A stretch of 64,000 bases of DNA from an uncultured Fibrobacteraceae bacterium (GCA_964436825.1 CAYTEO010000004.1:28372-92371), one strand, 5' to 3'; positions 19,233 to 59,366 are shown, counted from the stretch's first letter. Made by a program: numbers and translations. The notes: a model not told the origin generated them from the sequence alone.

Positions 19233-19286
19233 GGTGGTACTGCCGTCCGCTCCCCGGCGCACCGGAAAGACCCTGCACGGAGGAGG

Positions 19287-20171
19287 ATGACCCTGCAGCA
19301 GCAACCTCTCGTCTCGGTGGTCACGGCCACCTACAACATGGCCCGGCACCTGCCCGAGGCCATCGCCTCGGTCCTGCAGCAGGACTACCCCGCCATCGAG
19401 CACATCATCGTCGACGACGGCTCCACCGACGACACCCGGGCCGTCTTGCAGCGGTGGCGCGACGACCCGCGCGTCCGCGTGGTCCACCAGGCCAACGCCG
19501 GCCAGACCGTGGCCAAGAACCGGGGGATCGCCGAGGCCCGCGGCGAGCTGATCGCCTTCCTGGACGCCGACGACGCCTGGCTGCCCGGCAAGCTGAGCAG
19601 GCAGGTGCCCCACTTCGCCGATCCGGAGGTGGGGGTCGTCTTCGGCAACATGATCTACGTCGACGACGCCGGTCGTCCCCTGCCCATCGCCCCGATGCGG
19701 GCCCATGGCGGCTGGATCACCGACAAGCTGCTGATCGACAACTTCGTCGCCTTCCCCACCGTCGTCGTCCGGCGCAGCGTCCTGGACGAGCTGGGCGGGT
19801 TCGACGAGAGCCTGTCGATGTCCATCGACTACGAGCTGTGGCTGCGCGTCTCGGTCCGCTACCGCTTCGTCCACATCGACGAGCCGCTGGCCCGCTACCG
19901 CATCTGGGAGGGACAGATGTCGCACCGCAAGGGGGAGCGGTTCGACAACTTCTTCCGCATGCTGGAACGCTTCCTGGCCGAGCACCCCGGTGTGGTCTCC
20001 GGCGCGGCGATCCGGCACGGCTACGCCCACTCCTACACCTCGCGCGCCTGGTGGCACCTGAGCGAGGGTCGCCGCGGCGCCGCGTTGCGCGACCTGGGCC
20101 GCGCCCTGCGGCTGCGTCCCTGGGACCTGCGCGCCTGGCGGACGGTGGCGAAGGCCGTCACGGGGGTCTGA
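19287..20171 (+). CDS. glycosyltransferase family 2
   Basis: VSVVTATYNMARHLPEAIASVLQQDYPAIEHIIVDDGSTDDT…FLDADD…: classic GT-A fold GT2 N-terminus with DxD. Confidence 0.8.
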   Translation: MTLQQQPLVSVVTATYNMARHLPEAIASVLQQDYPAIEHIIVDDGSTDDTRAVLQRWRDDPRVRVVHQANAGQTVAKNRGIAEARGELIAFLDADDAWLPGKLSRQVPHFADPEVGVVFGNMIYVDDAGRPLPIAPMRAHGGWITDKLLIDNFVAFPTVVVRRSVLDELGGFDESLSMSIDYELWLRVSVRYRFVHIDEPLARYRIWEGQMSHRKGERFDNFFRMLERFLAEHPGVVSGAAIRHGYAHSYTSRAWWHLSEGRRGAALRDLGRALRLRPWDLRAWRTVAKAVTGV

Positions 20172-40796: not shown

Positions 40797-41987
40797 ATGG
40801 GCGCACCCTCCGTCTCCGCCGTCCAGCTGCGGGAGATCCTCCGTCCGGTCCGGGAGGCGCACCGTCTCGACCTGGTCGGCGTCGTCGCGCTGCCCCGGGC
40901 GCTGCCGCACACGGCGGCGTGGCTGAACTGGCTGCTCGAGGGTCGCCACGGCGACCTGGCGTACCTGCTGCGGGATCCCCACGCCAGGGCGGACCCCACG
41001 CGGGAGCGGCCCTGGGCCCGCTCGCTGATCGTGGTCGCCCAGCGCTACGTCAACGGGTGGGAGCGCGACGACCCCGAGGCCGTGGCCGGCGTGGCGGCCG
41101 GTGGCTCGTGGCTGGCCGGCGTCTCCCGCTACGCCCGCGGCCGTGACTACCACGATGTCCTGCGGCGCGCCCTGCGACGACTGGTCCAGGTGCTGCGCGA
41201 GGAGCTGATCGCGCGGGGGATCATCGCCCGCTACGACGACCTGCGGGCCGAGACCGCCGTCGACGCCGGGCCGTTCCTGGAGCGCGAGTGGGCCTGGCTG
41301 GCGGGGCTCGGTTTCATCGGCAAGAACACCATGCTGATCCACCCCCGGCTGGGATCGGGGCTGTTCCTGGGGGTGGCGGTCCTGGGCCTGGAGGTCGAGG
41401 CGCTGGCCGACGCTCCCCGCCCCCTGCTCGGCCCGCCGGCCCAGCGGCTGCCCGAACCGGAGGGGATGGCCTCGCTCTGCGGCCACTGCACCGCCTGCCT
41501 GGACGCCTGCCCCACCGGAGCGCTGGTGGCGCCGCTGCGACTGGACGCCGGCCGCTGCCTGTCGACCTGGTCCATCGAGTGGCGGGGCGGGGCGCCGCCG
41601 GGGGAGAGGCCGGCCCAGGGCGGCCTGCTGTTCGGCTGCGACGTCTGCCAGCAGGTCTGTCCCTGGAACCACAAGGCGGCCCGGCTGTTGACCGATCCGC
41701 CGGCGGCCGCCTACGCCGAACTGCCCGGGCACGGCGAGCTTTCGCTGGCGGACCTGATGACGATCGACGCGCAGACGTTCCGGCGGCGGTTCCGCCACAC
41801 TCCCCTGTGGCGCTGTCACCCCGAGGGGATGCGCCGCAACGCCCTGATCGTGGCGGCCAACACGGGGAGGCGGGACCTGCGGCGGGTCATCGAGGCCGTC
41901 GCCGCCGGCGATCCCGACCCCGGCGTGCGCGAGACGGCCGGCTGGGCCCTGTCGCGGCTCGACCCCGGCGGAGGGGAGGAGGAGTGA
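40797..41987 (+). CDS. queG: epoxyqueuosine reductase
   Basis: Two 4Fe-4S motifs CGHCTACLDACPTGA and CDVCQQVCPWN. B12-binding/tRNA-binding N-terminal region (…GFIGKNTMLIHPRLGS…). C-terminal HEAT-like repeat (DPDPGVRETAGWAL). Confidence 0.85.
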   Translation: MGAPSVSAVQLREILRPVREAHRLDLVGVVALPRALPHTAAWLNWLLEGRHGDLAYLLRDPHARADPTRERPWARSLIVVAQRYVNGWERDDPEAVAGVAAGGSWLAGVSRYARGRDYHDVLRRALRRLVQVLREELIARGIIARYDDLRAETAVDAGPFLEREWAWLAGLGFIGKNTMLIHPRLGSGLFLGVAVLGLEVEALADAPRPLLGPPAQRLPEPEGMASLCGHCTACLDACPTGALVAPLRLDAGRCLSTWSIEWRGGAPPGERPAQGGLLFGCDVCQQVCPWNHKAARLLTDPPAAAYAELPGHGELSLADLMTIDAQTFRRRFRHTPLWRCHPEGMRRNALIVAANTGRRDLRRVIEAVAAGDPDPGVRETAGWALSRLDPGGGEEE

Positions 41988-42997
41988 TGGGCACGAAGAC
42001 TTGGCCCGAGGCCGCCTGGTGGCACCCCCTGTCCGACGGGCGGGTCGCCTGCGACCTCTGTCCCATCGGCTGCAGGCTGCGCGAGGGGCAGGACGGTCCC
42101 TGCGGCACCCGCGGCGTCCGCGACGGGCGGATGGTCGCCCTGCAGTACGGCAGGGTCGTCGCGGCCGGGATCGACCCCATCGAGAAGAAGCCCCTCTACC
42201 ACTTCCATCCCGGCCGCCCGATCCTGTCGCTCGCCGCCCCGGGGTGCAACCTCCACTGCGCCTTCTGCCAGAACTGGACCATCAGCCAGCAGCACGACGG
42301 CCTCCCGACCGAGGACCTGCCGCCCGCGGCGGCGGTCTCCCAGGCCGACCGCGACGGCTCGATCGGCGTCGCCTACACCTACACCGAGCCGCTGGTCTGG
42401 TACGAGTACGTCCGCGACACGGCGCGGCTCGTCCGCGAGCGCGGCCTGGTGAACGTCCTGGTGACCAACGGCTACCTCGAACCCGGTCCCCTGGCCGAGC
42501 TGCTGCCGCTGATCGACGCCGCCAACGTCGATCTCAAGAGCATGGACGACGACTTCTACCGCCGGGTCTGCAAGGCGCGGCTCGACCCGGTCCTGGCGGC
42601 CATCCGGCGGATCCGCGCCGCCGGGGTCCACCTGGAGATCACCAACCTCGTCATCCCCGGACACAACGACAGCGACGAGCAGCTGGCGGCCCTGGTCGAC
42701 TTCGTGGCCGACGAGCTGGGTCGCGAGGTGCCGCTGCACTTCTCGGCCTACCATCCGGCCTGGCAGTTCGACGCCCCGGCCACGCCGCCCCGGACGCTGC
42801 TGCGCGCCGCGGAGATCGCGCGCCGCAGGCTGGACTTCGTCTATCTGGGGAATGTTAATCTCGCGGGAGAGAGTGACACCCGCTGCCCCGGCTGCGGGAC
42901 CGTCGTCGTCCGTCGCGGCGGCTTCAGCGCGCGGGTCGCGCTGGGGCCGGGAGCCACCTGCCCCGGCTGCGGCCGCCGGCTGCCGATCGTCGTCTAG
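41987..42997 (+). CDS. AmmeMemoRadiSam-system-type radical SAM enzyme (PFL-activase-like)
   Basis: ATG overlaps the queG stop (TGATG). N-terminal auxiliary cluster VACDLCPIGCRLREGQDGPCGTR, radical SAM CNLHCAFCQNW, and C-terminal zinc-ribbon CPGCGTVV…CPGCGRRL. Confidence 0.75.
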   Translation: MGTKTWPEAAWWHPLSDGRVACDLCPIGCRLREGQDGPCGTRGVRDGRMVALQYGRVVAAGIDPIEKKPLYHFHPGRPILSLAAPGCNLHCAFCQNWTISQQHDGLPTEDLPPAAAVSQADRDGSIGVAYTYTEPLVWYEYVRDTARLVRERGLVNVLVTNGYLEPGPLAELLPLIDAANVDLKSMDDDFYRRVCKARLDPVLAAIRRIRAAGVHLEITNLVIPGHNDSDEQLAALVDFVADELGREVPLHFSAYHPAWQFDAPATPPRTLLRAAEIARRRLDFVYLGNVNLAGESDTRCPGCGTVVVRRGGFSARVALGPGATCPGCGRRLPIVV

Positions 42998-43681: not shown

Positions 43682-44077
43682 TCACCACGGCTGCCGCCAC
43701 GCCGGCGGTTCGCCCAGCCAGCCCTCGCGCCGGTGGGCGACGCGGACGTAGGTCGTGATCCCGCCGCGGACGAACCACTTGGCGTCGATCTCCAGGAACC
43801 ACGGATCGAGCAGCCGGACCAGGTCGGCCAGGATCTCGCCGGTCACCCTCTCGTGGAAGGCACCCACGTCGCGGTAGGTCCACAGGTAGAGTTTCAGGGA
43901 CTTCAGCTCGACGCACAGCTCCCGCGGGATGTAGCGGATCTTGAAGTGGGCGAAGTCCGGCTGCCCGGTCAGGGGGCAGAGGCAGGTGAACTCCGGGCAG
44001 TCGAACAGGATCTCGTACTCCCGGTCCGGGTGGGGGTTCGGGAACGTCTCCAGGTCGCGGGACGGCTGGGTCGGCAT
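43682..44077 (-). CDS. queF: NADPH-dependent 7-cyano-7-deazaguanine (preQ0) reductase
   Basis: Start ATG 44077 (MPTQPSRD…). QueF motifs ILFDCPEFTCLCPLTGQPDFAHFKIRY (Cys nucleophile) and ELKSLKLYLWTYR. 131 aa, unimodular type. Confidence 0.85.
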   Translation of the reverse strand: MPTQPSRDLETFPNPHPDREYEILFDCPEFTCLCPLTGQPDFAHFKIRYIPRELCVELKSLKLYLWTYRDVGAFHERVTGEILADLVRLLDPWFLEIDAKWFVRGGITTYVRVAHRREGWLGEPPAWRQPW

Positions 44078-44296
44078 GCTGTGACCTCCGTTGGGGTTGG
44101 GTCCAGGATAGTGATCGCCGCCGCGGCGGGCAAGCCGACATCCGTTGGTGCGCCCCCGATCCCTAGGGGTTAGCATGGCCGACCGGAGGGGCCACCGGCC
44201 GGCGGGAGGTCAAGCCGCCCCCGCGCCGACCGATGGAACGGGGGTACCGCTGCGACAGGCGGCACGCGGGCCATGACCGAGCGACACGGGAGAGAG

Positions 44297-45949: not shown

Positions 45950-48900
45950 TTACTTGATCAGGGCCATGCGGTCGGTGAAGACGTGGTCTCCCGCCTCGAC
46001 GCGGTAGAAGTAGACGCCGGTCGGCATCTCCCGGCCCGCCTCGTCGCGGCCGTCCCACTGGACCGTGTGGACGGCCGCGGGCAGGCGCGCGTCCAGCAGG
46101 GTCCGGACCAGGTGCCCGGCCACGTCGTAGACCGCCACGCGCGTGCGGCTCTCCGCCGGCAGGGCGAAGCGGATCGTCGTCGTCGGGTTGAACGGGTTGG
46201 GGAAGTTGGGCTCGACGGCGAAGGCGCGCGGCACGCCGGGCAGCTCGCCGTCGTCGACACCCGTGCCCGCGCTGCAGCCCTGGCCCAGGGCGCCGATCTG
46301 GCCGCACCCGCCGCTGTTGCCGGCCAGGCACGGCGAGGTGTCGAACAGGGTGTAGTCGCCGGCGCCGGCGTCACAGAACTCGGGGTCGACCGACACGTTG
46401 CCCGCGGTGCCGGTGGGATCGGTGACGCCGTCGTAGTCGGCGGTCTGGTTCCCGTAGACGTCGTTGCAGTCGAAGGTGGGGCTGGCCGACGAGACGTGGA
46501 TCCCGTTGGCCACCGATGCCGACCCGGTGTTGAAGGCCACGATGTTGTGCGAGACGGCCGCGTCGGTACCCTGCAGGTACATCCCCCCGCCGCCGCCGCT
46601 GGAGAAGTTGTCGGCGAACGTGTTGCCGCTGACATCGGCGACCGGCACGCTGATCAGGTAGAGGCCGCCGCCCACGTAGTTGCCCGAGTTGCCGGCGACC
46701 AGGGAGGCGGTCAGGCTGAACGAGGCGGTGGCGTTGGCCACGATGCCGCCGCCGAACAGGCCCGTGTTGCCGGTGACGGTCAGGCTGTCCAGCTGGACCG
46801 TTCCCGAGGTGGCCAGCAGGGCGCCGCCGTACATGAACGTGCCGTCGGGGGTGACGGAGTTGCCGGTCAGGGCCACGGCCGTCAGCCGGAGCAGGTCCCC
46901 CTGGAACAGCAGTCCGCTCCCGTCGCCCTTGCTGGAGTTGCCGCTGATGCTGCCGCCGTGGGCGGTCAGCTGCATCCCGCCAGCCGAGTTGACGGCGTAG
47001 ATGCCGCCGCCGCTCTCCAGACCGGTATGGCCGGAGACGGTGCAGTCCTCAAGGGTCAGATCGGCGTCGACGGCATAGATGCCGCCGCCGAGGGGAGGTG
47101 TCGTGTTGGCGGCCAGGCCGGTGTTGTCCTCGATGACGCAGCCGCTGAGCGTCGGGGCGCCGCGGTAGACGTGGATCCCCCAGCCGTGGACGGCGCTGTT
47201 GCCGTGGACGTGGACGTTCTCCAGCACGGCGTTGGAGTCCTTCAGCAGGATCCCGCCCCCGCTGCCCAGCTGGCTGGCGCTGCCGCAGGCGTTGCCCGTC
47301 ACTTCCAGGTTGCGCAGGGTGGGCGAGGCGTTGGACACGATGATCCCGCCGCCGAAACGGCCGCTGAACGGGATGTTCGTGAAATAGTTCCCGCCTCCGC
47401 CGGTGCAGCGGAAGCCATCGACCACGACATCCGGACCGGCGGCGGCGTCGAACTGCAGGGTAGTCCCGGTGGCGATCCCCTGGATGATCGTCGGGTTGCC
47501 GAGCGGATCGCGGCTCCCGTACCCGCCGTCCCAGCCGCCCAGGTAGAGGAGCGCCTTGTCCGGCAGGGTCAGCGGACCGGCGACGACCGTCCCGCCGGTG
47601 AAGGCGATCGTGTCGCCGGGTGCCGACTCGTTGACGGCGTCGAACCAGTCCTCGAACTCGTCGGGCACCTGCTGGAAGTTGTCGCCCAGGGCCCGCAACA
47701 GGTTGATGCGGCCGGACCCGAGCAGGCCGACGTAGGAGGGATTGGCGTCGTCGACGGAGTCGCAGGTGCTCAGCAGCAGGTCCTGGACCTGGGTCGCCGT
47801 CCAGTCGGGATGGGCGGACCAGATCAGGGCCAGGGCCCCGCAGGTGATCGGCGAGGCGAAGGAGGTCCCGTTGACACTGGCGTAGGTGTGGGCTCCCGTC
47901 GTGTGGTCGTACCAGGTCGACTTGATCCCCTCGCCGGGCGCGCACAGCTCGATCCAGCTACCGTAGTTGGAGAAGCTGGATTTCTGGTCGCTGGCGTTGA
48001 CGGACGCCACCGACAGGACGTAGGGATGGGTGCCGTAGTACTCGGCGACGTCCGAGTCGTCGTTCCCGGCGGCGTTGACGATGATGGCGCCCTGGTTGTG
48101 GGCGTAGTCGGTGGCGTTGGCCAGGTAGCTGCTGGTCCCCCAGCTGCAGTTGAGGATCCGGGCACCCTTCTGGACGGCGTACATGATTCCCTGGGAGGCG
48201 TAGAGCATGGAGACGACGCCCAGGCTGGAGCCGTCGGGCAGCCAGCCCACGCGCACGGCCATGATCTTGACGCCGCCGGCGACACTGGCGATGCCCAGCC
48301 CGTTGTCCATGACCGCCCCGACGGTCCCGGCGCAGGCCGTGCCGTGGCTCTCGTAGTCCATGGGGTCGTTGTCCGGATCGAAGACGTCCTCGTCGGGGTA
48401 TCCGTCGCCGGAGTTGACGAAGTCCCACCCGCGGATGTCGTCCACCTTGCCGTTGCCGTCGTCGTCGAAGTTGGGCAGGCCGTTGTATTCCGGCCAGTTG
48501 ATCCAGATGGCGTCGGCCAGGTCGGGATGGTGCCAGTCGACGCCGGAGTCGATGATGGCCACGATGACGTTGCTGTCGCCCAGCGCCTCGGCCCAGCCGC
48601 CCACGGCGCGGATGTCCTTGCCGCCCATCGTCGTGTTGCGCAGGTACCACTGGTAGGGCAGCTCCGGGTCGTTGGGCAGGGGACGGTCGACGTAGTAGAG
48701 TTCGTCCTTGAGGACCTGGCTGACCTCGGGCAGCCTGGCGAAGTCGGCCATGGCGGCGTCGAGATCGGCATCCGGGGCCAGGGAGACGACCCACTCCCGG
48801 CTCATGTCGAAGCCGCCGGTCTTGTCAGGGGTCGGCGCGGTGGGGTAGGCCTGTTCCAGGCCGCGGACCCGGTGCGTCTCCATCAGGGTGCGCAGGCGGG

Positions 48901-49078
48901 GATCGTCGGGCACGAGGCCGCCGGCGCTCTTGACGCCGCTGGGCGCGTACCCGGGTTCGAAGCGGACGATGAAGTGATGTTTGGCGTAACCGGCAAAGCC
49001 GCCGGCGCCGGCCGTGACGGCCAGGGTGAGCGACATCAGGGCGGCCGCCAGGGCGAGACAGCGGGAGAGACGGTTCAT
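45950..49078 (-). CDS. S8 family subtilisin-like serine peptidase with beta-helix repeat region and T9SS/Por-type (FlgD-Ig-like) C-terminal sorting domain
   Basis: Signal peptide MNRLSRCLALAAALMSLTLAVTAGA. I9-like propeptide. Catalytic triad motifs VAIIDSGVD, HGTACAGTV, GTSFASPITCG. Long Gly/Asn-rich parallel beta-helix. CTD NPFNPTTTIRFALPAESRTRVAVYDVAGHLVRTLLD…GVYFYRVEAGDHVFTDRMALIK. Confidence 0.85.
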   Translation of the reverse strand: MNRLSRCLALAAALMSLTLAVTAGAGGFAGYAKHHFIVRFEPGYAPSGVKSAGGLVPDDPRLRTLMETHRVRGLEQAYPTAPTPDKTGGFDMSREWVVSLAPDADLDAAMADFARLPEVSQVLKDELYYVDRPLPNDPELPYQWYLRNTTMGGKDIRAVGGWAEALGDSNVIVAIIDSGVDWHHPDLADAIWINWPEYNGLPNFDDDGNGKVDDIRGWDFVNSGDGYPDEDVFDPDNDPMDYESHGTACAGTVGAVMDNGLGIASVAGGVKIMAVRVGWLPDGSSLGVVSMLYASQGIMYAVQKGARILNCSWGTSSYLANATDYAHNQGAIIVNAAGNDDSDVAEYYGTHPYVLSVASVNASDQKSSFSNYGSWIELCAPGEGIKSTWYDHTTGAHTYASVNGTSFASPITCGALALIWSAHPDWTATQVQDLLLSTCDSVDDANPSYVGLLGSGRINLLRALGDNFQQVPDEFEDWFDAVNESAPGDTIAFTGGTVVAGPLTLPDKALLYLGGWDGGYGSRDPLGNPTIIQGIATGTTLQFDAAAGPDVVVDGFRCTGGGGNYFTNIPFSGRFGGGIIVSNASPTLRNLEVTGNACGSASQLGSGGGILLKDSNAVLENVHVHGNSAVHGWGIHVYRGAPTLSGCVIEDNTGLAANTTPPLGGGIYAVDADLTLEDCTVSGHTGLESGGGIYAVNSAGGMQLTAHGGSISGNSSKGDGSGLLFQGDLLRLTAVALTGNSVTPDGTFMYGGALLATSGTVQLDSLTVTGNTGLFGGGIVANATASFSLTASLVAGNSGNYVGGGLYLISVPVADVSGNTFADNFSSGGGGGMYLQGTDAAVSHNIVAFNTGSASVANGIHVSSASPTFDCNDVYGNQTADYDGVTDPTGTAGNVSVDPEFCDAGAGDYTLFDTSPCLAGNSGGCGQIGALGQGCSAGTGVDDGELPGVPRAFAVEPNFPNPFNPTTTIRFALPAESRTRVAVYDVAGHLVRTLLDARLPAAVHTVQWDGRDEAGREMPTGVYFYRVEAGDHVFTDRMALIK

Positions 49079-49114: not shown

Positions 49115-49197
49115 GTTGGCGGGGGCGTACTAGATCGATGTTATTATAGCTCAATTCCCGAGGGGCTACAACGGGCGTGAGCCGGAGGTGGCGACGG

Positions 49198-50334
49198 ATG
49201 CGGGTGTTGCTGCTGGAACCCTACGACGGCGGATCTCACCGAGCCTTCCGGCTGGGGCTGGCCCGGCATTCCCGGCACCGGATCGAGGCGCTGACCCTCC
49301 CGGCCCGTTTCTGGAAGTGGCGGATGCGGGGCGCCGCCGTCTGGTTTGCCGACCGGATCGCCGGGCTGGCCGAGCCCGCCGACCTGCTGCTGGTGACCGA
49401 CTATCTCAACGTGGCCGATCTCAAGGGGTTGCTCCCGCCGTCCTGGCACCGGGTGCCGATCCTGCTCTACATGCACGAGAACCAGCTGACCTATCCCCTG
49501 TCGCCGGAGGAGGAGTTCGATTTCCACTTCGGCTTCACGAACATCGTCAGCTGCCTGGCCGCCGACCGGGTCGTCTTCAACTCCGGGTACCACCGCGACC
49601 TGTTCCTGGAATCACTGCCCGAATACCTGGGCCGGATGCCGGAGGCCGTTCCCCGCGACGTCCGCCCCCGCCTGGAGGCCAAATCGACGGTCCTGCCGGT
49701 GGGAATCGAGCGGCGACCGCACCCGTCGGACAGTTTCGCCCCCTACCTGGGCGGACGGTGCGAGCCGGGGCTGGGGCCGGACTGGCCCCGCGGCGGACGT
49801 CGGCACCTGGTGCTGTGGAACCACCGCTGGGAGTTCGACAAGCGTCCCGAACGGTTCCGGCGGGCGATCCTCCGGCTGGCCGACGCCGGTCTGGAGTTCG
49901 ACCTCGCCCTGCTGGGGGACCCCCGCGGGCACGAGGAGGTCTTCCAGCCCTTGCGCGATCGGCTCGGCGAGCGCATCGTGGCGTGGGGACATCAGCCCGA
50001 CCGCGGCGTGTACGAGCGGTGGCTCGAACGCGCCGACATCGTCGTCAGCACGGCGGCCCAGGAGTACTTCGGGATCGCCGTGGCCGAGGCGGTCCATGCC
50101 GGCGCCTATCCCGTCCTGCCGCGGGAGCAGGTCTATCCTTCCCTGTACGGTCGCCGCTGCCGCGGGCGACACCTCTACCGGGACGAGGACGAGCTGGTCG
50201 GATTGCTGACCGACCTGCTGACCGGCGACGGGTGCGGGCACGTCTGTTCCCTGCCCCTGGACGTGGACGAGGCCTGCTGGGAGCGGCTGGCCCCCCGGTA
50301 CGACGAGCTGTGCGAGGAGATGTGCCGCCGATGA
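49198..50334 (+). CDS. DUF3524-domain glycosyltransferase (GT4-like; homologous in architecture to eukaryotic GTDC1/QTMAN tRNA-queuosine mannosyltransferase)
   Basis: GGAGGTG RBS 7 nt before ATG 49198. Hallmark DUF3524 N-terminus MRVLLLEPYDGGSHRAF. C-terminal GT1/GT4-type region …VSTAAQEYFGIAVAEAVHAGAYPVLP… (EX7E-like). Confidence 0.75.
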   Translation: MRVLLLEPYDGGSHRAFRLGLARHSRHRIEALTLPARFWKWRMRGAAVWFADRIAGLAEPADLLLVTDYLNVADLKGLLPPSWHRVPILLYMHENQLTYPLSPEEEFDFHFGFTNIVSCLAADRVVFNSGYHRDLFLESLPEYLGRMPEAVPRDVRPRLEAKSTVLPVGIERRPHPSDSFAPYLGGRCEPGLGPDWPRGGRRHLVLWNHRWEFDKRPERFRRAILRLADAGLEFDLALLGDPRGHEEVFQPLRDRLGERIVAWGHQPDRGVYERWLERADIVVSTAAQEYFGIAVAEAVHAGAYPVLPREQVYPSLYGRRCRGRHLYRDEDELVGLLTDLLTGDGCGHVCSLPLDVDEACWERLAPRYDELCEEMCRR

Positions 50335-51176
50335 GAGAGCGACCCGCCGAACGCCTGGGCGCCTGCCTGCTCGACATCGAGGGGGTCCTGGTACGCGACA
50401 AGCGCTACCGACCCGTCGACGGCGCCGTGGACTGGGTCCGTGGCCTGGTCGACTGCGGCGTCCCCTTCGCCCTGGTCAGCAACAACACGACCCACCCGCC
50501 GCGGGAGCTGGCGGCCGCCCTGGCCGGGGTCGGTTTCCCGGTGACCGCCGATCACGTCGTCTCCGCGCTGGCGGTCGGCGCCCGCCTGCTGGCTGGCTGG
50601 GGCAAGACGCGCCTGCTCTGGCTGGGAAGGCCCGAACTGGCACCGTGGTGGCGGGAGCAGGGATTCGTGACCGACGCCGTCACCGACTGCCAGGCCGTCG
50701 TCCTGGGCCTGAACGAGCAGCTCTCGGTGGCCGACCTGGACCGGGCGCTGTCGCCCCTGGTCGACCAGGAGGCGGAACTGGTCGCCCTGCACCGCAACCT
50801 GTTCTACCTGGACAGCCGGGGCGAGCGTCGCTTCGGTCCGGGCTTCTACTGCGCCGCCCTGGCCGAGGCCGCGGCCAGGGACCCCGTCGTCATCGGCAAG
50901 CCCCACGAGCGGATCTACCGGGAGGGGCTCGAACGGGTGGGGCTCCCCGCCGACGAGGTCCTGTTCGTCTCCGACGACCCGGCGGCCGACCTGGTGACGG
51001 CCGGCCGGCTGGGAATGACGACGGCCTTCGTCCTGTCCGGCAAGCACCCCGATCATGCCGTCCTGGGTCGCCTCGACCAGCAGGAGTGGCCCGACATCAT
51101 CGCCGCGTCGCTGGCGGACGTCACGCCGCCGGAAGGGCCGGCGGGGATCACAGAAGGGAACGGAACGGATGAGTGA
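50331..51176 (+). CDS. HAD-superfamily subfamily IIA hydrolase (NagD-like phosphatase)
   Basis: ATGA overlap with the upstream stop. HAD motif I LLDIEGVL, motif II LVSNNT, and motif III/IV …KPHERIY…LFVSDD. Confidence 0.75.
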   Translation: MRERPAERLGACLLDIEGVLVRDKRYRPVDGAVDWVRGLVDCGVPFALVSNNTTHPPRELAAALAGVGFPVTADHVVSALAVGARLLAGWGKTRLLWLGRPELAPWWREQGFVTDAVTDCQAVVLGLNEQLSVADLDRALSPLVDQEAELVALHRNLFYLDSRGERRFGPGFYCAALAEAAARDPVVIGKPHERIYREGLERVGLPADEVLFVSDDPAADLVTAGRLGMTTAFVLSGKHPDHAVLGRLDQQEWPDIIAASLADVTPPEGPAGITEGNGTDE

Positions 51177-52038
51177 GAGCGCCGCAGTCTCGACCAGGGA
51201 CCAGACCCGCCTGCAACAGCTCTCCCTGGCCGTCTGGGAGATGGAGCAGCTGCCCCGCGAGCAGCTGCGCGAGCCCCTCGTCCGCCGCCAGTACCTGCGC
51301 GCCCAGCAACAGCTGCTGGCCGAGCAGGAGGCGGTCGCCGACATCGCCCCGGAGGCGCGGTCCCGCCTGCTGCTCCGCGAGGAGTCCCCGTCGGCGGCCC
51401 TGCTCGTCCACGGATCCACCGGCGTGCCGTCGGACCTGCAGGGGCTGGCCGACTCGCTCCACGCCTCCGGCCTGACGGTCTGGAACCTGCGCCTGCCGGG
51501 CCACGGCCTGCCCGGCGTGGAGCGCCCGCCCGTCACCTGGCGCGCCTGCGCCAATGCCGTGCGCAGGGCCTTCGGCATCCTGGACCGCTGCCACGAGCGG
51601 GTCCACCTGGTCGGTTTCAGCTTCGGGGCGGCCCTGGCCGTCGTCCTGACCCGCAAGGTCCGACCGGCCTCCCTGGCGCTGCTGTCGCCGGCGCTGCTGC
51701 CCCGCGTGCCGTGGCGGTTCCGGATCCTGCTCTGGCTGCGGATGCACCGGTTGCCGTGGCTGCGTCGCCGCTTCGGCTGGGACCTGGAGGTCCTGGAGGC
51801 CATGCAGCAGGCCCGCGCCCAGATCGGCCGGCTGCGACTGCCCGTCTACGCGGCCCATTGCGACGACGACGAGCGGATCGATCCCGGCTCGCTGCGCCTG
51901 TTGCAGCGGCGGGTCAAGGACCGGGTCTCCCGCTTCCGGCTCTACCCCCAGGGCGGTCACATGATCCTGCGCGCCCACGGCCCGGCGGGACTCTACCGGG
52001 AGATCCAGGATTTCCTGGAGGCCGACCGGGCCCGCTAG
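51169..52038 (+). CDS. alpha/beta-fold hydrolase (esterase/lipase family)
   Basis: Overlaps the HAD stop by 8 nt. Nucleophile elbow HLVGFSFGAALAV (GxSxG). HGSTG oxyanion-type motif. Catalytic Asp/His region …DDDERIDP…GGHMIL. Confidence 0.65.
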   Translation: MSESAAVSTRDQTRLQQLSLAVWEMEQLPREQLREPLVRRQYLRAQQQLLAEQEAVADIAPEARSRLLLREESPSAALLVHGSTGVPSDLQGLADSLHASGLTVWNLRLPGHGLPGVERPPVTWRACANAVRRAFGILDRCHERVHLVGFSFGAALAVVLTRKVRPASLALLSPALLPRVPWRFRILLWLRMHRLPWLRRRFGWDLEVLEAMQQARAQIGRLRLPVYAAHCDDDERIDPGSLRLLQRRVKDRVSRFRLYPQGGHMILRAHGPAGLYREIQDFLEADRAR

Positions 52039-52265: not shown

Positions 52266-52484
52266 ATGATCGACACCCAGACGCGCGCCCCGATCTACAT
52301 CGGCGGCGAGGAGAACACGCACCAGGTGATGACCTCCGTCGAGGCGGCCGAGTACCTGCAGATGCACGTCAAGACCATCTGTCGGCTGGCGAAGGAAGGG
52401 AAGATCCCGGCCCGCAAGGTGGGTAGCGAGTGGCGGTTCCTGCGCAAGGTCCTGGATCGCTGGCTCGCCGACGAGATGGAGTGA
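52266..52484 (+). CDS. excisionase-family helix-turn-helix DNA-binding protein (MerR-like HTH_17)
   Basis: GGGAGGAT RBS before ATG 52266. MTSVEAAEYLQMHVKTICRLAKEGKIPARKVGSEWRF matches the excisionase/HTH_17 consensus (LTVxEAAxxLGVSxxTIYRLxxxGxIPAxKVGxxWRF). 72 aa. Confidence 0.7.
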   Translation: MIDTQTRAPIYIGGEENTHQVMTSVEAAEYLQMHVKTICRLAKEGKIPARKVGSEWRFLRKVLDRWLADEME

Positions 52485-52485
52485 G

Positions 52486-53466
52486 ATGCCTCTGACGATC
52501 GAGCCGCAGCGGACTGCCGGGGAGCGCATCGCCGCGTTCCGCGTGACGGGGACACCGGTCCCGGACGAGGGCCGGGACCTGGTGTCCCATCTTCGCGACG
52601 GCATCCCGGACCGGGCGGAGGAGATCCATCTCGACCTGGCCGGCGTCACGGCGATGCCCGACGATCTGGCCAGGGCCCTGGTCTCTCTCTGGCGCGATCT
52701 GCAGGACCGGGGCACCGGTCTGCGGATCACCGGCACCACCGTCGTCGTCGGCTGGGTGCTGGCCCGCCACCTGGGGCCGGTGGCGGCGGAGGTCCTGGGC
52801 GACGAGCGCTGGGCGGTGCTGGCCGGCGGCCGGAAGCGGGCGGGGATCCCTGTCGACAGGCAGGAGCGTCCCGAGCGCGACGTGGCCGTCCGCCTGCAGT
52901 TCCGCCTGCGGGAGGCCGCCGATCCTGTCGCCGTGGAGCGGGAGATCGCCGCCACCCTGACCCGGTGCGGACTGGCGGCAGGGGTCGTGCTGGCGATAAG
53001 CAGCGGCGGCCGCCTCCTCGTGCCCGGAAGCGGGGAGGTCCATCCCGTCCCCGCCTCCGGCTGGCTCGGTTCCCTGCTGGCGAGTGCCGACTGTCCGCTG
53101 GCCACCGACGAGATCGACCTCGCCGGACTGACCCTGGAGGAGCGTGCCCTGCTGAAGTGGTCCGGCGCGGACCTGCTGGTCCCCCTGCTCCACGGGGGCG
53201 AGCTGCGGGGGCTCCTGCTGCTGCGCAGTGGTCGCGAGGCCGGCCTGGCCGGCTACCGGTCGGGAGAGGTGCTGGCCCTGGACCTGCTGGGACGTTCCCT
53301 GGCCGGGCATCTGGCGGCCGTCGCCGGACGCCTGGACGGAACCCTCGTCCCGGGCTCGAAGGTGGAGACCCGGACCTGGGGCGGCACTACCCGCGAGGAC
53401 GGAGCGAGTACCGTCGTCGGGCAGCACGTGGCCGTGGCCGATCCCACACCGGTTGCAGTCTGCTGA
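52486..53466 (+). CDS. STAS-like (anti-sigma-antagonist-like) domain + GAF-like domain protein, function unknown
   Basis: ATG 2 nt after the HTH gene stop. N-terminal …IHLDLAGVTAMPDDLARALVSLWRDLQDRGTGLRITG resembles STAS. Residues ~150-290 (…LAAGVVLAISSGGRLLVPGSGEV…LLVPLLHGGELRGLLLLRSGRE…LALDLLGRSLAGHLA) resemble a GAF fold. High GC3 throughout. Confidence 0.5.
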   Translation: MPLTIEPQRTAGERIAAFRVTGTPVPDEGRDLVSHLRDGIPDRAEEIHLDLAGVTAMPDDLARALVSLWRDLQDRGTGLRITGTTVVVGWVLARHLGPVAAEVLGDERWAVLAGGRKRAGIPVDRQERPERDVAVRLQFRLREAADPVAVEREIAATLTRCGLAAGVVLAISSGGRLLVPGSGEVHPVPASGWLGSLLASADCPLATDEIDLAGLTLEERALLKWSGADLLVPLLHGGELRGLLLLRSGREAGLAGYRSGEVLALDLLGRSLAGHLAAVAGRLDGTLVPGSKVETRTWGGTTREDGASTVVGQHVAVADPTPVAVC

Positions 53467-57857: not shown

Positions 57858-59258
57858 TCACACGGGATCGAGACGGAGTGTAACGTTCCGCCGCTCACCC
57901 GGCAAGATACGCGTCCGCGCGGCCGCCGCCAAGCCGACGACCCACAGGACGCCGCCCCGGTCCGCGACGACGAGCACCCCCTCGCGGCGGAACCAGGGGA
58001 TCCTCCGCTCCTGGAGCAGGTCGCCCACCAGGACGGGGTGCCTCCCCGCGACGGGGACCAGCCGGTCGCCGGCCTCCCACCGGCGCAGGTGCGGATCGCC
58101 GCGCAGGGCGTCTTCCGGGACGGTCAGCCGGTACGGCAGGGGCCGGGGCGGGCAGCCGTGCTGGATGGGGTCGACGACCGGCTCCCCGTCGGTGGGCGCG
58201 ACGGTGAGGGCCAGGCGCACCGCCGGGGCGTGCGGTGGTTCCGGGGGCAGCAGGGCGATTCCGTCGAAGGCCCGGGCCGCGCGCCAGCCGCCGCAGAGGT
58301 CGATCGCCGAGCCGCTGCGGCTGCGCGGCAGCCAGGCCAGGAGCCGTCGCCAGTGGCGCTCCTCCAGCAGCGGGGCGCCGATCCCGGCGCCCTGGGCGGC
58401 GTAGGCCAGCGCGAGCATGACGACCCGCCGGGCCAGCGGGGCCGGCAGGGCGGTCAGCCCGGCCGCGGGCAGCAGGCCGTCGTCGCGGCCGGCGGCCAGC
58501 CGCTCCAGCGCCTGCGCGGCCAGCCGGTGCAGGGTGTCGCTCTCGGCAGCGGCCAGCCGGGCCAGCCGCAGCGGCGCCTCCCTGGCGGCGGGGCCGAAGA
58601 TCGCCTCGGCCAGCGGCACCAGCTCGTGGCGAACCCGGCTGCGGCGGTTCTGCCCGTCGGCGTTGGTGCTGTCGTCCCGCCAGGGTTGTTCCTGGCGCCG
58701 GAGAAAGGCGAGGATCTCCCGGCGGTCCGTCTCCAGCAGGGGGCGGACGAGCCGGCCGATGACCGGCCGCATGACGGCCAGGCCGTCCAGGCCGGTCCCG
58801 CGGAACAGGCGCAGCAGGATCGTCTCGAGCTGGTCGTCCCGCTGGTGACCCAGGGCGCAGGCGGTCAGCTCCGCCGACCCGTCCAGCACCGCTGTGATGG
58901 CCTGGAGGCGCAGGTGGCGGGCCGCCTCCTCCAGCCCGGCGCCCCGGGCGGCGGCCGTCTCGGTCGTGGCGACCCGGCGGACGGTCAGCGGGACGTCGTG
59001 GCGGGCGCAGAGGTCGCGGCAGAACGCCTCGTCCCCGTCGCTCTCGGCGCCGCGCAGCCCGTGGTTGAGGTGCAGGGCGGCCACGGGCCGGCCGGTCCGC
59101 CCTCTCCAGGCGACGGCGGTCAGCAGCAGGGCCGTCGAGTCGGGACCGCCGGACAGCGCGACCAGCAGGCCGGGTTCGCTGCCGGGACCGGAAGCGCGGT
59201 GCACCAGCTCGTCGAGCCGGGGGACGTGGCGCTGCAGGAAGGGATCGCTCGCTGTCAT
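57858..59258 (-). CDS. tilS: tRNA(Ile)-lysidine synthetase
   Basis: PP-loop LLVALSGGPDSTALL at the N-terminus of a 466-aa protein, upstream of ftsH in the conserved tilS-…-ftsH arrangement. Start ATG 59258. Confidence 0.8.
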   Translation of the reverse strand: MTASDPFLQRHVPRLDELVHRASGPGSEPGLLVALSGGPDSTALLLTAVAWRGRTGRPVAALHLNHGLRGAESDGDEAFCRDLCARHDVPLTVRRVATTETAAARGAGLEEAARHLRLQAITAVLDGSAELTACALGHQRDDQLETILLRLFRGTGLDGLAVMRPVIGRLVRPLLETDRREILAFLRRQEQPWRDDSTNADGQNRRSRVRHELVPLAEAIFGPAAREAPLRLARLAAAESDTLHRLAAQALERLAAGRDDGLLPAAGLTALPAPLARRVVMLALAYAAQGAGIGAPLLEERHWRRLLAWLPRSRSGSAIDLCGGWRAARAFDGIALLPPEPPHAPAVRLALTVAPTDGEPVVDPIQHGCPPRPLPYRLTVPEDALRGDPHLRRWEAGDRLVPVAGRHPVLVGDLLQERRIPWFRREGVLVVADRGGVLWVVGLAAAARTRILPGERRNVTLRLDPV

Positions 59259-59289
59259 GGAATCCGCCCGGAGGGGGCAAAAAAGGAAA

Positions 59290-59366
59290 TGGTAGCGGCT
59301 CAGGGACTCGAACCCCGGACACGTGGATTATGATTCCACTGCTCTAACCAACTGAGCTAAGCCGCC
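59290..59366 (-). tRNA. tRNA with anticodon CAT (elongator Met or Ile2/lysidine substrate), 77 nt with encoded CCA
   Basis: Minus-strand sequence GGCGGCTTAGCTCAGTTGGTTAGAGCAGTGGAATCATAATCCACGTGTCCGGGGTTCGAGTCCCTGAGCCGCTACCA folds as a cloverleaf: 7-bp acceptor (G1·U72 wobble), D-arm GCTC/GAGC, anticodon stem GTGGA/TCCAC with loop ATCATAA, T-arm CGGGG-TTCGAGT-CCCTG. Confidence 0.85.

What the first reader, a model, noticed from the sequence alone, without database searches (positions are those of the whole stretch)
49198..52038. DUF3524 (QTMAN/GTDC1-like) glycosyltransferase, HAD-IIA phosphatase and alpha/beta hydrolase as one overlapping operon inside a tRNA-modification-rich neighbourhood
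The three genes are chained by 4- and 8-nt start/stop overlaps (ATGA at 50331; ATG 51169 inside the HAD stop region), so they are almost certainly co-translated. In eukaryotes DUF3524 + Glycos_transf_1 is the architecture of GTDC1/QTMAN, the enzyme that mannosylates queuosine-34 of tRNA-Asp. No function is known for bacterial DUF3524 proteins. Within 10 kb upstream sit queG (40797), queF (43682) and an AmmeMemoRadiSam-type radical SAM, and tilS/tRNA-CAT and a TrmH-family MTase are also in the window. A sugar-transferase, phosphatase and hydrolase trio is what a modified-nucleoside glycosylation or remodelling route would need. This may be a bacterial glycosyl-queuosine (or other hypermodified base) pathway that has not been described.
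Basis: partly seen in the sequence, partly recalled or inferred. Interest (0 to 1): 0.6.

Follow-up and report, generated by a model that had tools for sequence, protein, structure and literature searches.

The report
Bacterial QTMAN-like glycosyltransferase operon
The first gene is a clear bacterial relative of the animal enzyme that attaches mannose to the tRNA base queuosine, so it may do the same in bacteria, but its two operon partners and the nearby queuosine genes are a quirk of one bacterial lineage and do not add support.

Summary
Three co-directional genes (49198-50334, 50331-51176, 51169-52038) overlap by 4 and 8 nt. They encode a DUF3524/QTMAN_N glycosyltransferase, a HAD-IIA hydrolase and an alpha/beta-fold protein.

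The glycosyltransferase belongs to the QTMAN/GTDC1 family. It shows about 35% identity to human QTMAN in both domains, and all 19 family-invariant residues are shared.

The pathway reading is not supported:
- The HAD gene, the alpha/beta-fold gene and the que genes lie next to this glycosyltransferase only in one Krumholzibacteria-like lineage, inside a larger conserved gene block.
- In 73 loci from about ten other phyla none of them is nearby, and no other partner recurs.
- The "hydrolase" has lost its nucleophile serine in 7 of 11 orthologues.
- The HAD gene is missing from two loci of the lineage.

The loci are not polysaccharide clusters either. Glycosylation of queuosine-34 in bacterial tRNA remains the best guess (about 0.5), but it rests on homology alone. 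Databases already carry that name, and no experiment exists. I rate it a new member of a known kind, of moderate interest.

The parts
49198..50334 (+). QTMAN-family (DUF3524 + GT4-type) glycosyltransferase, 378 aa. The start is the ATG at 49198, not the upstream GTG at 49177.
   Evidence: PF12038 at E 1.8e-61, profile 1-168 of 168. About 35-36% identity to human QTMAN in both domains. All 19 family-invariant residues are shared with vertebrate QTMAN. The AF2 model is GT-B, pLDDT 88.7, and its nearest solved folds are retaining GT4 enzymes. The sequence carries R210-x4-K215 and E289-x7-E297. The N-terminus MRVLLLEPYDGGSH matches the family consensus.
50331..51176 (+). HAD-IIA hydrolase, 281 aa, coupled to the glycosyltransferase gene by an ATGA overlap. 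Motif I is D-I-E-G (Glu at the Asp+2 position).
   Evidence: TIGR01460 at 107.9 bits, cut-off 100.15. The nearest solved relatives are pyridoxal-phosphate phosphatase/chronophin, p-nitrophenyl phosphatases and NagD. D15, E17, S50, N51, T53, K190, D215 and D216 are invariant in 8 orthologues. The subfamily was found only in this clade and always next to the glycosyltransferase gene.
51169..52038 (+). Alpha/beta-fold protein, 289 aa, carboxylesterase/monoacylglycerol-lipase type. It has a conserved N-terminal extension of about 60 aa. This copy keeps the G-F-S-F-G nucleophile elbow.
   Evidence: Hydrolase_4 and Abhydrolase_6. The nearest solved relatives are Est30-type carboxylesterases and thermostable MGLs. 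The orthologue alignment shows Ser replaced by Gly in 7 of 11, with Asp and His kept.
40797..41987 (+). Context only: queG (epoxyqueuosine reductase). It shows that the host makes queuosine-tRNA.
   Evidence: TIGR00276 at 221.6 bits, cut-off 200; Pfam QueG_DUF1730 and Fer4_16.
43682..44176 (-). Context only: queF type II (preQ1 synthase).
   Evidence: TIGR03139 at 160 bits, cut-off 86.9.
45950..49078 (-). Context only: S8 subtilase with beta-helix and a T9SS-type C-terminal sorting domain. It is transcribed divergently from the operon and sets its upstream boundary.
   Evidence: Pfam Peptidase_S8 at 1.7e-49, plus Beta_helix, FlgD_ig and Por_Secre_tail. It occupies the same position in all clade loci.

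Best explanation
Gene 1 encodes a bacterial orthologue of QTMAN (GTDC1). It is a soluble, retaining GT-B/GT4 glycosyltransferase whose N-terminal acceptor domain is the family-defining QTMAN_N fold. It most likely takes a nucleotide-hexose (GDP-mannose, by analogy) and transfers the sugar, with retention, onto a hydroxyl of the cyclopentenediol of queuosine-34 in a GUN-anticodon tRNA (tRNA-Asp, by analogy). The host supplies that substrate through its own que genes.

What is shown: family membership, an intact donor site, the fold, and the presence of queF and queG in the host. What is inferred by homology only: the acceptor (Q34-tRNA), the donor sugar and the tRNA species.

The HAD-IIA and alpha/beta-fold genes are lineage-specific additions to the operon in a Krumholzibacteria-like clade. 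They are co-expressed with the glycosyltransferase but are not part of its conserved function. In most of the clade the alpha/beta protein cannot be a classical serine hydrolase, so it is more likely an accessory or binding subunit than a pathway enzyme. The nearby que genes reflect conserved gene order in this lineage, not a dedicated gene cluster.
For: - PF12038 is matched end to end at 207 bits.
- BLASTP against a sequence 100% identical to my recalled human GTDC1, and 96% identical to macaque proteins named 'tRNA-queuosine alpha-mannosyltransferase' (P0271), gives 35% identity over residues 1-166 (E 2e-31) and 36% over 205-340 (E 9e-29).
- All 19 columns invariant in 40 bacterial sequences from many phyla stay invariant after four vertebrate QTMANs are added. 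Ten of them lie in the acceptor-side N-domain: S13, H14, W39, R42, H93, E94, Q96, P100, N128, S129.
- Human-to-bacteria identity (median 31.4%, maximum 39.4%) lies almost within the bacteria-to-bacteria range (median 36.6%, minimum 28.7%).
- The model is a confident GT-B fold (pLDDT 88.7, pTM 0.88).
- A profile search against the PDB finds GDP-mannose-dependent PimA and other GT4 enzymes for the C-domain.
- queF and queG lie in the same window.
- The family is single-gene, chromosomal and well conserved (35-48% identity across phyla). It sits in varied housekeeping contexts, not in polysaccharide clusters, and is absent from phage and plasmid collections.
- In four Spirochaetia loci the next gene is a NOL1/NOP2/Sun RNA m5C methyltransferase.
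- QTMAN's reaction on tRNA-Asp Q34 is documented.
- The partners are lineage-specific and the nucleophile is lost.
Against: - There is no experimental evidence for glycosylated queuosine in any bacterium. A 2026 review lists only Q and gluQ as bacterial Q-based modifications.
- No physical linkage to que genes exists outside one clade, and no GUN-tRNA genes lie nearby.
- The N-domain is somewhat less conserved between human and bacteria (32.8%) than among bacteria (43.7% to the window protein), so the acceptor could differ.
- Family proteins are not basic (median pI about 6.1).
- The nearest solved folds all act on small molecules or lipids.
- Conserved translational coupling to a HAD phosphatase in this clade is unexplained by tRNA mannosylation.
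- I could not test genome-wide co-occurrence with tgt/queA.
Confidence: 0.5

Rival explanations
1. A two- or three-step small-molecule glycoside pathway. The GT4 enzyme glycosylates a phosphorylated small acceptor, as sucrose-phosphate synthase, MshA or glucosylglycerol-phosphate synthase do. The coupled HAD phosphatase then removes the phosphate, and the esterase trims or remodels the product (a compatible solute or a thiol-like cofactor).
For: - The GT and HAD genes overlap by 1-17 nt in eight clade loci.
- The closest solved folds are small-molecule GT4 enzymes: SenB, GlgM, BshA, MshA and sucrose-phosphate synthase.
- The HAD protein resembles generic small-molecule phosphatases.
Against: - The HAD partner is absent from 73 of 73 loci in other phyla and from two loci of the clade itself (L003, L011).
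- The glycosyltransferase's N-terminal acceptor domain is QTMAN_N, with every invariant residue shared with the tRNA enzyme.
- The esterase nucleophile is lost in 7 of 11 orthologues.
- The only apparent GT-HAD fusion is a frameshift artefact.
Confidence: 0.2
2. A QTMAN-family enzyme with a different nucleic-acid or deazapurine acceptor. Candidates are free queuine or queuosine (or a precursor), another hypermodified base, or another RNA. Vertebrate QTMAN would then have acquired its tRNA-Asp role after transfer of the gene to eukaryotes.
For: - The N-domain is more diverged between human and bacteria than among bacteria.
- Vertebrate proteins carry an insertion of about 120 aa between the domains that bacteria lack.
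- In Spirochaetia the neighbour is an RNA m5C methyltransferase of unknown target.
Against: The invariant residues are identical in bacteria and vertebrates, and nothing positive points to any specific alternative acceptor.
Confidence: 0.2
3. An ordinary cell-envelope or exopolysaccharide glycosyltransferase, as JGI's automatic name ('glycosyltransferase involved in cell wall biosynthesis') implies.
For: - The JGI names.
- A Polysacc_synt flippase gene lies 3.3 kb upstream.
- A second GT4 gene lies nearby in 4 of 73 loci.
Against: - The gene is not embedded in glycan clusters in 73 loci. There were 107 different Pfam families among 89 putative operon partners, and only 2 were GT1.
- The family is unusually well conserved for a glycan GT and has a specific N-domain.
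- The flippase is separated from the operon by an oppositely oriented protease gene.
Confidence: 0.05

Closest known systems
QTMAN / GTDC1 (vertebrate tRNA-queuosine alpha-mannosyltransferase; Zhao et al. 2023 as cited)
   Same: Both have the same two-domain architecture, QTMAN_N plus a GT4-type C-domain. Identity is 35-36% in both domains. All family-invariant residues are shared, as are the donor-site R-x4-K and E-x7-E motifs. The GT4 retaining fold fits an alpha-linkage.
   Different: This protein is bacterial and lacks the roughly 120-aa low-complexity linker of vertebrate proteins. The substrate, donor sugar and tRNA target are untested. In this clade it sits in an operon with a HAD-IIA and an alpha/beta-fold gene, which has no eukaryotic counterpart.
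PimA / MshA / BshA / SenB / sucrose-phosphate synthase (solved retaining GT4 enzymes)
   Same: All share the GT-B fold and the nucleotide-sugar-binding C-domain. The profile hit to PimA is E 8e-7, and Foldseek gives E 1e-10 to 1e-12 with TM about 0.6-0.7.
   Different: Identity is only 12-18%. Sequence similarity is confined to the C-domain. The N-domain is a separate Pfam family (PF12038, not Glyco_transf_4).
GluQRS (YadB), the known bacterial enzyme that decorates Q34 of tRNA-Asp
   Same: By analogy only, the target would be the same: the cyclopentenediol of Q34 in tRNA-Asp. gluQ is the one known bacterial Q decoration.
   Different: The protein family and the chemistry are unrelated (aminoacyl ester versus glycoside). 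I did not test whether the two are mutually exclusive in genomes.
NagD / PDXP / p-nitrophenyl-phosphatase type HAD-IIA phosphatases
   Same: Gene 2 passes the TIGR01460 cut-off and aligns over its full length with these enzymes. Motifs II-IV are intact.
   Different: Motif I reads D-x-E instead of D-x-D in all 8 orthologues. No equivalog model is reached, and the substrate is unknown.

Membership tests
QTMAN / GTDC1 family | N-terminal QTMAN_N (PF12038, formerly DUF3524) domain | tested here: met
   E 1.8e-61, 207.3 bits against a cut-off of 25; profile 1-168 of 168 on residues 2-170.
QTMAN / GTDC1 family | GT4/GT1-type nucleotide-sugar-binding C-domain with donor-site motifs, giving an overall GT-B fold | tested here: met
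   Pfam GT1 models score below their cut-offs (20.7-24.3 bits). However, a family profile hits PimA, MshA and WaaG C-domains (E 8e-7 to 6e-5). The AF2 model is GT-B and matches GT4 structures. R210-x4-K215 and E289-x7-E297 are read directly from the sequence; assigning them to the donor site rests on established GT4 knowledge (PimA, MshA).
QTMAN / GTDC1 family | Collinear full-length similarity to an experimentally validated QTMAN | tested here: met
   Against the human-identical P0271: 35% identity over residues 1-166 (E 2e-31) and 36% over 205-340 (E 9e-29).
QTMAN / GTDC1 family | Family-invariant residues shared between bacterial and vertebrate members | tested here: met
   The same 19 invariant columns appear with and without four vertebrate sequences.
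QTMAN / GTDC1 family | Catalytic activity: GDP-mannose + Q34-tRNA-Asp gives alpha-mannosyl-Q | not testable with these tools
   This needs enzymology or nucleoside LC-MS. No bacterial report was found.
QTMAN / GTDC1 family | Substrate available: the host makes or salvages queuosine | tested here: met
   QueF-II and QueG both score above their equivalog cut-offs in the same window. tgt and queA are not in the window, so they were not seen.
   QueG and QueF relatives lie within 10 kb only in clade loci (6 of 83 by tblastn) and in 0 of 73 loci from other phyla. No que family appears among the neighbour clusters that recur in at least 4 loci.
   The trio occurs only in the Krumholzibacteria-like clade. 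The HAD gene is absent in L003 and L011. The alpha/beta nucleophile Ser is Gly in 7 of 11 orthologues.
GT + phosphatase compatible-solute-type pathway | The glycosyltransferase and its cognate HAD phosphatase co-occur wherever the glycosyltransferase occurs | tested here: not met
   None of 73 non-clade loci has a HAD relative. No HAD family is among the top 25 Pfam families of 89 operon partners.
Polysaccharide / LPS glycosyltransferase | Embedded in a glycan-biosynthesis cluster (several GTs, flippase, polymerase, sugar-nucleotide genes) | tested here: not met
   The contexts are heterogeneous housekeeping genes. Only 2 of 89 partners are GT1.
HAD-IIA phosphatase (gene 2) | Subfamily HMM above its cut-off, and catalytic motifs I-IV | tested here: inconclusive
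   TIGR01460 scores 107.9 against 100.15. Motifs II-IV and the nucleophile Asp15 are invariant, but the Asp+2 general acid/base is Glu17 in all 8 orthologues. Whether activity is retained was not tested.
Serine alpha/beta hydrolase (gene 3) | Ser-Asp-His catalytic triad conserved | tested here: inconclusive
   The window copy has G-F-S-F-G, D233/D234 and H264. Ser is replaced by Gly in 7 of 11 orthologues, while Asp and His are invariant.

The most novel reading that the evidence does not exclude
Bacteria from a dozen phyla (Krumholzibacteria, Desulfobacterota, Spirochaetota, Planctomycetota, Chloroflexota, Bacteroidota/Rhodothermales, Verrucomicrobiota and others) glycosylate queuosine-34 in tRNA through QTMAN orthologues. 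This decoration has so far been described only in animals. In the Krumholzibacteria-like lineage the enzyme has recruited two accessory proteins. One is a HAD-IIA protein with an unusual D-x-E motif. The other is an alpha/beta-fold protein that has mostly lost its nucleophile and, in some members, gained a strongly basic disordered tail that could bind RNA.
Probability: 0.4. Interest if true: 0.7.

Novelty: new member of a known kind. Interest (0 to 1): 0.42.

Why it matters
Glycosylated queuosines (manQ, galQ) are treated as an animal-specific layer on a bacterially made micronutrient. The reviews I could search list only Q and glutamyl-Q for bacteria.

A conserved bacterial QTMAN family is present in at least 596 species-representative genomes. 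If it really makes glycosyl-Q, the modification and its enzyme would be bacterial in origin. The known set of bacterial wobble modifications would grow. Simple culturable systems would then be available for studying what Q glycosylation does to decoding.

If the family proves to have another acceptor, it would show how QTMAN's tRNA specificity evolved. Either way, the family's rename to tRNA-queuosine alpha-mannosyltransferase (Pfam PF12038, QTMAN_N), already given by NCBI to at least one bacterial homologue, is an untested transfer and should be checked.

Tried and rejected
1. que linkage as evidence. tblastn of the window's QueG, QueF, HAD and alpha/beta proteins against 83 loci found hits only in the clade.
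2. A recurrent partner elsewhere. De novo clustering of all ORFs within 7 kb of the glycosyltransferase gene, followed by Pfam, found nothing consistent: ABC ATPase in 13 loci, histidine kinases in 8, then clade-local sets.
3. A Rosetta-stone fusion. P0122 looked like a GT-HAD fusion, but its HAD part aligns only from residue 56 and its GT part is N-terminally truncated, so it is a frameshifted ORF.
4. tRNA-gene adjacency. There is no enrichment of Asp, Tyr, His or Asn tRNA genes near the glycosyltransferase gene in 85 loci; one tRNA-Asp lies 3 kb away in L064.
5. Mobile or defence context. There is no DUF3524 in phage or plasmid collections and no PADLOC hit for the three genes.
6. A solved QTMAN structure. 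There is none in the PDB by sequence or by profile.
8. Zhao et al. 2023 is not held in the library.
9. My first self-trained gene caller picked antisense shadow ORFs in this 71% GC DNA, so I rebuilt it with an amino-acid-composition prior.
10. Basic pI as a hint of tRNA binding. The family median is about 6.1, which is uninformative.
Full report
**1. Observation**

The window is 71% GC. Reading the sequence directly shows three co-directional ORFs.

- The first runs 49198-50334. Its ATG has GGAGG 9 nt upstream, and its N-terminus MRVLLLEPYDGGSH matches the family consensus.
- The second runs 50331-51176, starting inside ATGA, which is a 4-nt overlap with the first.
- The third runs 51169-52038, starting 8 nt before the second gene's TGA.

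Pfam and NCBIfam identify the products. Gene 1 matches PF12038 QTMAN_N (the former DUF3524) end to end at E 1.8e-61, with weak GT1 hits in its C-terminal half. Gene 2 is a HAD-IIA hydrolase, with TIGR01460 above its cut-off. Gene 3 is an alpha/beta-fold protein (Hydrolase_4, Abhydrolase_6).

They are QueG at 40797-41987, an AmmeMemoRadiSam radical SAM gene at 41987-42997, QueF-II at 43682-44176 on the minus strand, and TilS at 57858-59258 on the minus strand behind a tRNA-CAT at 59290-59366. I did not find the TrmH gene.

Between the que genes and the operon lie a HlyIII-family gene, a Polysacc_synt flippase gene, and a 1042-aa S8 subtilase gene on the opposite strand. The operon therefore begins at the glycosyltransferase gene, and the que genes are not part of it. 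The window matches a JGI metagenome contig.

**2. What the glycosyltransferase is**

The protein has about 4,970 scored relatives at 90% clustering. The best 120 are 64-76% identical and come from Krumholzibacteria-, Gemmatimonadales- or 'bacterium'-labelled MAGs. One of them already carries the NCBI name 'tRNA-queuosine alpha-mannosyltransferase domain-containing protein'. An exhaustive search of 50% cluster representatives gives 898 clusters at E <= 1e-30.

To get a verifiable eukaryotic sequence, I searched with human GTDC1 as I recalled it. The database returned a 458-aa protein 100% identical over 100% of the length (P0271). It also returned macaque proteins, 96% identical, named tRNA-queuosine alpha-mannosyltransferase. 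I therefore used P0271 as human QTMAN.

- BLASTP of the window protein against P0271 gives 35% identity over residues 1-166 (E 2e-31) and 36% over 205-340 (E 9e-29). The human protein carries an extra linker of about 120 aa between the two domains.
- In an alignment of 40 bacterial members from many phyla, 19 columns are invariant. The same 19 remain invariant after four vertebrate QTMANs are added. Ten of them are in the N-terminal domain, which is the acceptor-binding half in GT-B enzymes.
- Human-to-bacteria identity (median 31.4%, maximum 39.4%) lies almost within the bacteria-to-bacteria range (median 36.6%, minimum 28.7%).
- AlphaFold2 gives a confident GT-B model (pLDDT 88.7, pTM 0.88).
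- No QTMAN structure exists in the PDB. The nearest solved folds are retaining GT4 enzymes (SenB, GlgM, BshA, MshA, PimA, sucrose-phosphate synthase) at 12-18% identity.
- The sequence carries R210-x4-K215 and E289-x7-E297. From established GT4 knowledge (PimA, MshA), these are the diphosphate- and sugar-binding signatures of the donor site.

A retaining GT4 mechanism fits the alpha-glycosidic bond that QTMAN forms from GDP-mannose.

**3. Comparative genomics**

A scan of one genome per GTDB species found at least 596 relatives, and 80 loci were fetched. They come from Krumholzibacteria, Spirochaetia, Desulfobacterota, Planctomycetota, Chloroflexota, Bacteroidota/Rhodothermales, Verrucomicrobiota, KSB1, TA06 and Acidimicrobiia. 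Two are from cultured strains: Desulfatibacillum alkenivorans DSM 16219 and Geomonas diazotrophica Red69.

tblastn of the window's proteins against 83 loci found HAD relatives in 8, alpha/beta relatives in 10, and QueG and QueF relatives in 6 each. All of these loci have a glycosyltransferase at least 63% identical to the window's. None of the 73 loci from other phyla has any of them.

Within the clade the whole region is syntenic: S8 protease (minus strand), GT, HAD, alpha/beta protein, HTH_17, CdaA, FolP, FtsH, TilS. Conserved adjacency there says little on its own.

- The HAD gene is missing in L003 and L011.
- QueG and QueF are missing from the flanks in L003, L004, L086 and L087.
- A search with the HAD protein found only clade members, 53-76% identical. 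The three I looked up all sit in the same S8, GT, HAD, alpha/beta arrangement.

Outside the clade I clustered all ORFs within 7 kb of the glycosyltransferase gene and scanned 89 putative same-strand operon partners against Pfam.

- There were 107 different families and no dominant partner.
- The commonest families were TPR (5 proteins) and NOL1/NOP2/Sun RNA m5C methyltransferase (4, all Spirochaetia). Only 2 partners were GT1.
- The recurrent clusters are an ABC ATPase, histidine kinases, isocitrate dehydrogenase, a ComF-like phosphoribosyltransferase, PGM/PMM, RNase J, FtsK and a T2SS ATPase.

The gene is thus a solitary, well-conserved chromosomal gene in varied housekeeping contexts. It is absent from phage and plasmid collections and has no defence-system signature. 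GUN-anticodon tRNA genes are not enriched nearby.

**4. The two partners**

The HAD protein resembles generic C2-capped small-molecule phosphatases: PDXP/chronophin, p-nitrophenyl phosphatases and NagD. Its motif I reads D-I/V-E-G in all eight orthologues. The nucleophile Asp is kept, but Glu replaces the usual Asp+2. Motifs II-IV are intact.

The alpha/beta protein resembles Est30-type carboxylesterases and monoacylglycerol lipases. Across 11 orthologues the nucleophile Ser of the G-x-S-x-G elbow is present in only four, including the window copy. It is Gly in the other seven, while the Asp and His positions are invariant. Four of the Gly-type orthologues carry an N-terminal tail of 79-122 aa that is rich in Arg, Gly, Ser and Pro, with net charge +10 to +18. 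All eleven share a conserved N-terminal segment of about 60 aa (invariant L20, W23, L49, E54, R64).

This pattern fits an accessory or binding protein better than a pathway hydrolase. An apparent GT-HAD fusion (P0122) turned out to be a frameshifted ORF.

**5. Interpretation**

The strongest statement the data support is that gene 1 is a genuine member of the QTMAN family, probably an orthologue. It has an intact donor site and a conserved acceptor domain, and its host makes queuosine. The most likely function is glycosylation of Q34 in tRNA, at about 0.5. That inference is homology transfer across domains of life and nothing more.

QTMAN chemistry needs neither a phosphatase nor an esterase.

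- The main rival is a glycoside-phosphate synthase plus phosphatase route to a small molecule. It explains the GT-HAD coupling, but it fails the test that the partners should travel with the glycosyltransferase.
- A different deazapurine or RNA acceptor cannot be excluded.
- An envelope-glycan role is unlikely.

**6. Known versus new**

I found no paper mentioning DUF3524 and none describing glycosylated queuosine or a QTMAN homologue in bacteria. A July 2026 review of bacterial RNA modifications lists only Q and gluQ. Pfam has renamed the domain, and NCBI already gives the QTMAN-domain name to at least one bacterial homologue, so the bioinformatic link is public.

The finding is therefore a new member of a known kind, with an untested and fairly interesting predicted activity. 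It also has some unexplained lineage-specific features: the D-x-E HAD protein, and the alpha/beta protein that has lost its nucleophile and in places gained a basic tail.

The decisive tests are nucleoside LC-MS on the cultured carriers, heterologous expression in E. coli, and a genome-wide PF12038 versus tgt profile.

Noticed in passing
window 51169-52038; orthologues L003:11289-12161, L005:12039-13214, L006:12024-13154, L008:11978-13099, L010:11918-12814, L011:4727-5599, L012:7472-8521: The nucleophile Ser of the alpha/beta-hydrolase elbow is Gly in 7 of 11 orthologues, while the triad Asp and His stay invariant. Four of the Gly-type proteins have an N-terminal tail of 79-122 aa rich in R/G/S/P, with net charge +10 to +18. 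All share a conserved N-terminal segment of about 60 aa with an invariant Trp.
   Followed up: partly
window 50331-51176 (residues 15-18): HAD motif I is D-I-E-G rather than D-x-D-G. Glu at the Asp+2 position is invariant in all eight orthologues. This HAD subfamily was found only in the Krumholzibacteria-like clade.
   Followed up: partly
window 40797-42997: queG is translationally coupled (TGATG, a 1-nt overlap at 41987) to an AmmeMemoRadiSam-type radical SAM gene (TIGR04337, 340 bits). The pair is also adjacent in L005-L008 and L088, and no AMMECR1 or Memo gene is seen next to it.
   Followed up: no
window 57858-59366 (minus strand): A tRNA with a CAT anticodon (59290-59366) lies 31 nt upstream of tilS (57858-59258) on the same strand. 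It may be the tRNA-Ile2 substrate co-transcribed with its lysidine synthetase.
   Followed up: no
window 52266-53466: A 72-aa HTH_17 (excisionase-type) gene has a PADLOC mad1 hit (2e-8). It is followed by a 326-aa protein with no family hit above threshold (only a weak, sub-threshold DDE_5 match). The HTH_17 gene is conserved in the clade's syntenic block, but the gene after it varies, being STAS/HD_5 in other loci.
   Followed up: no
L013:3809-4729, L022:11085-11891, L039:11104-11880, L064:11058-11876: In four Spirochaetia loci the QTMAN-like gene is directly followed by, or overlaps, a short NOL1/NOP2/Sun-family RNA m5C methyltransferase gene. A PGM/PMM gene lies upstream in L013, L039 and L064 (and in L031). 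L064 also has a tRNA-Asp gene 3 kb away.
   Followed up: partly
protein P0122 (ENA contig, 217 kb): An apparent 589-aa GT-HAD fusion is a frameshifted ORF. The GT part starts at profile position 58 and the HAD part aligns only from residue 56.
   Followed up: yes
window 19233-20168: A GT2-family glycosyltransferase gene lies 30 kb upstream. By my recollection the vertebrate galactosyl-Q enzyme QTGAL/B3GNTL1 is also GT2-type, but GT2 is a very large family and I did not compare them.
   Followed up: no
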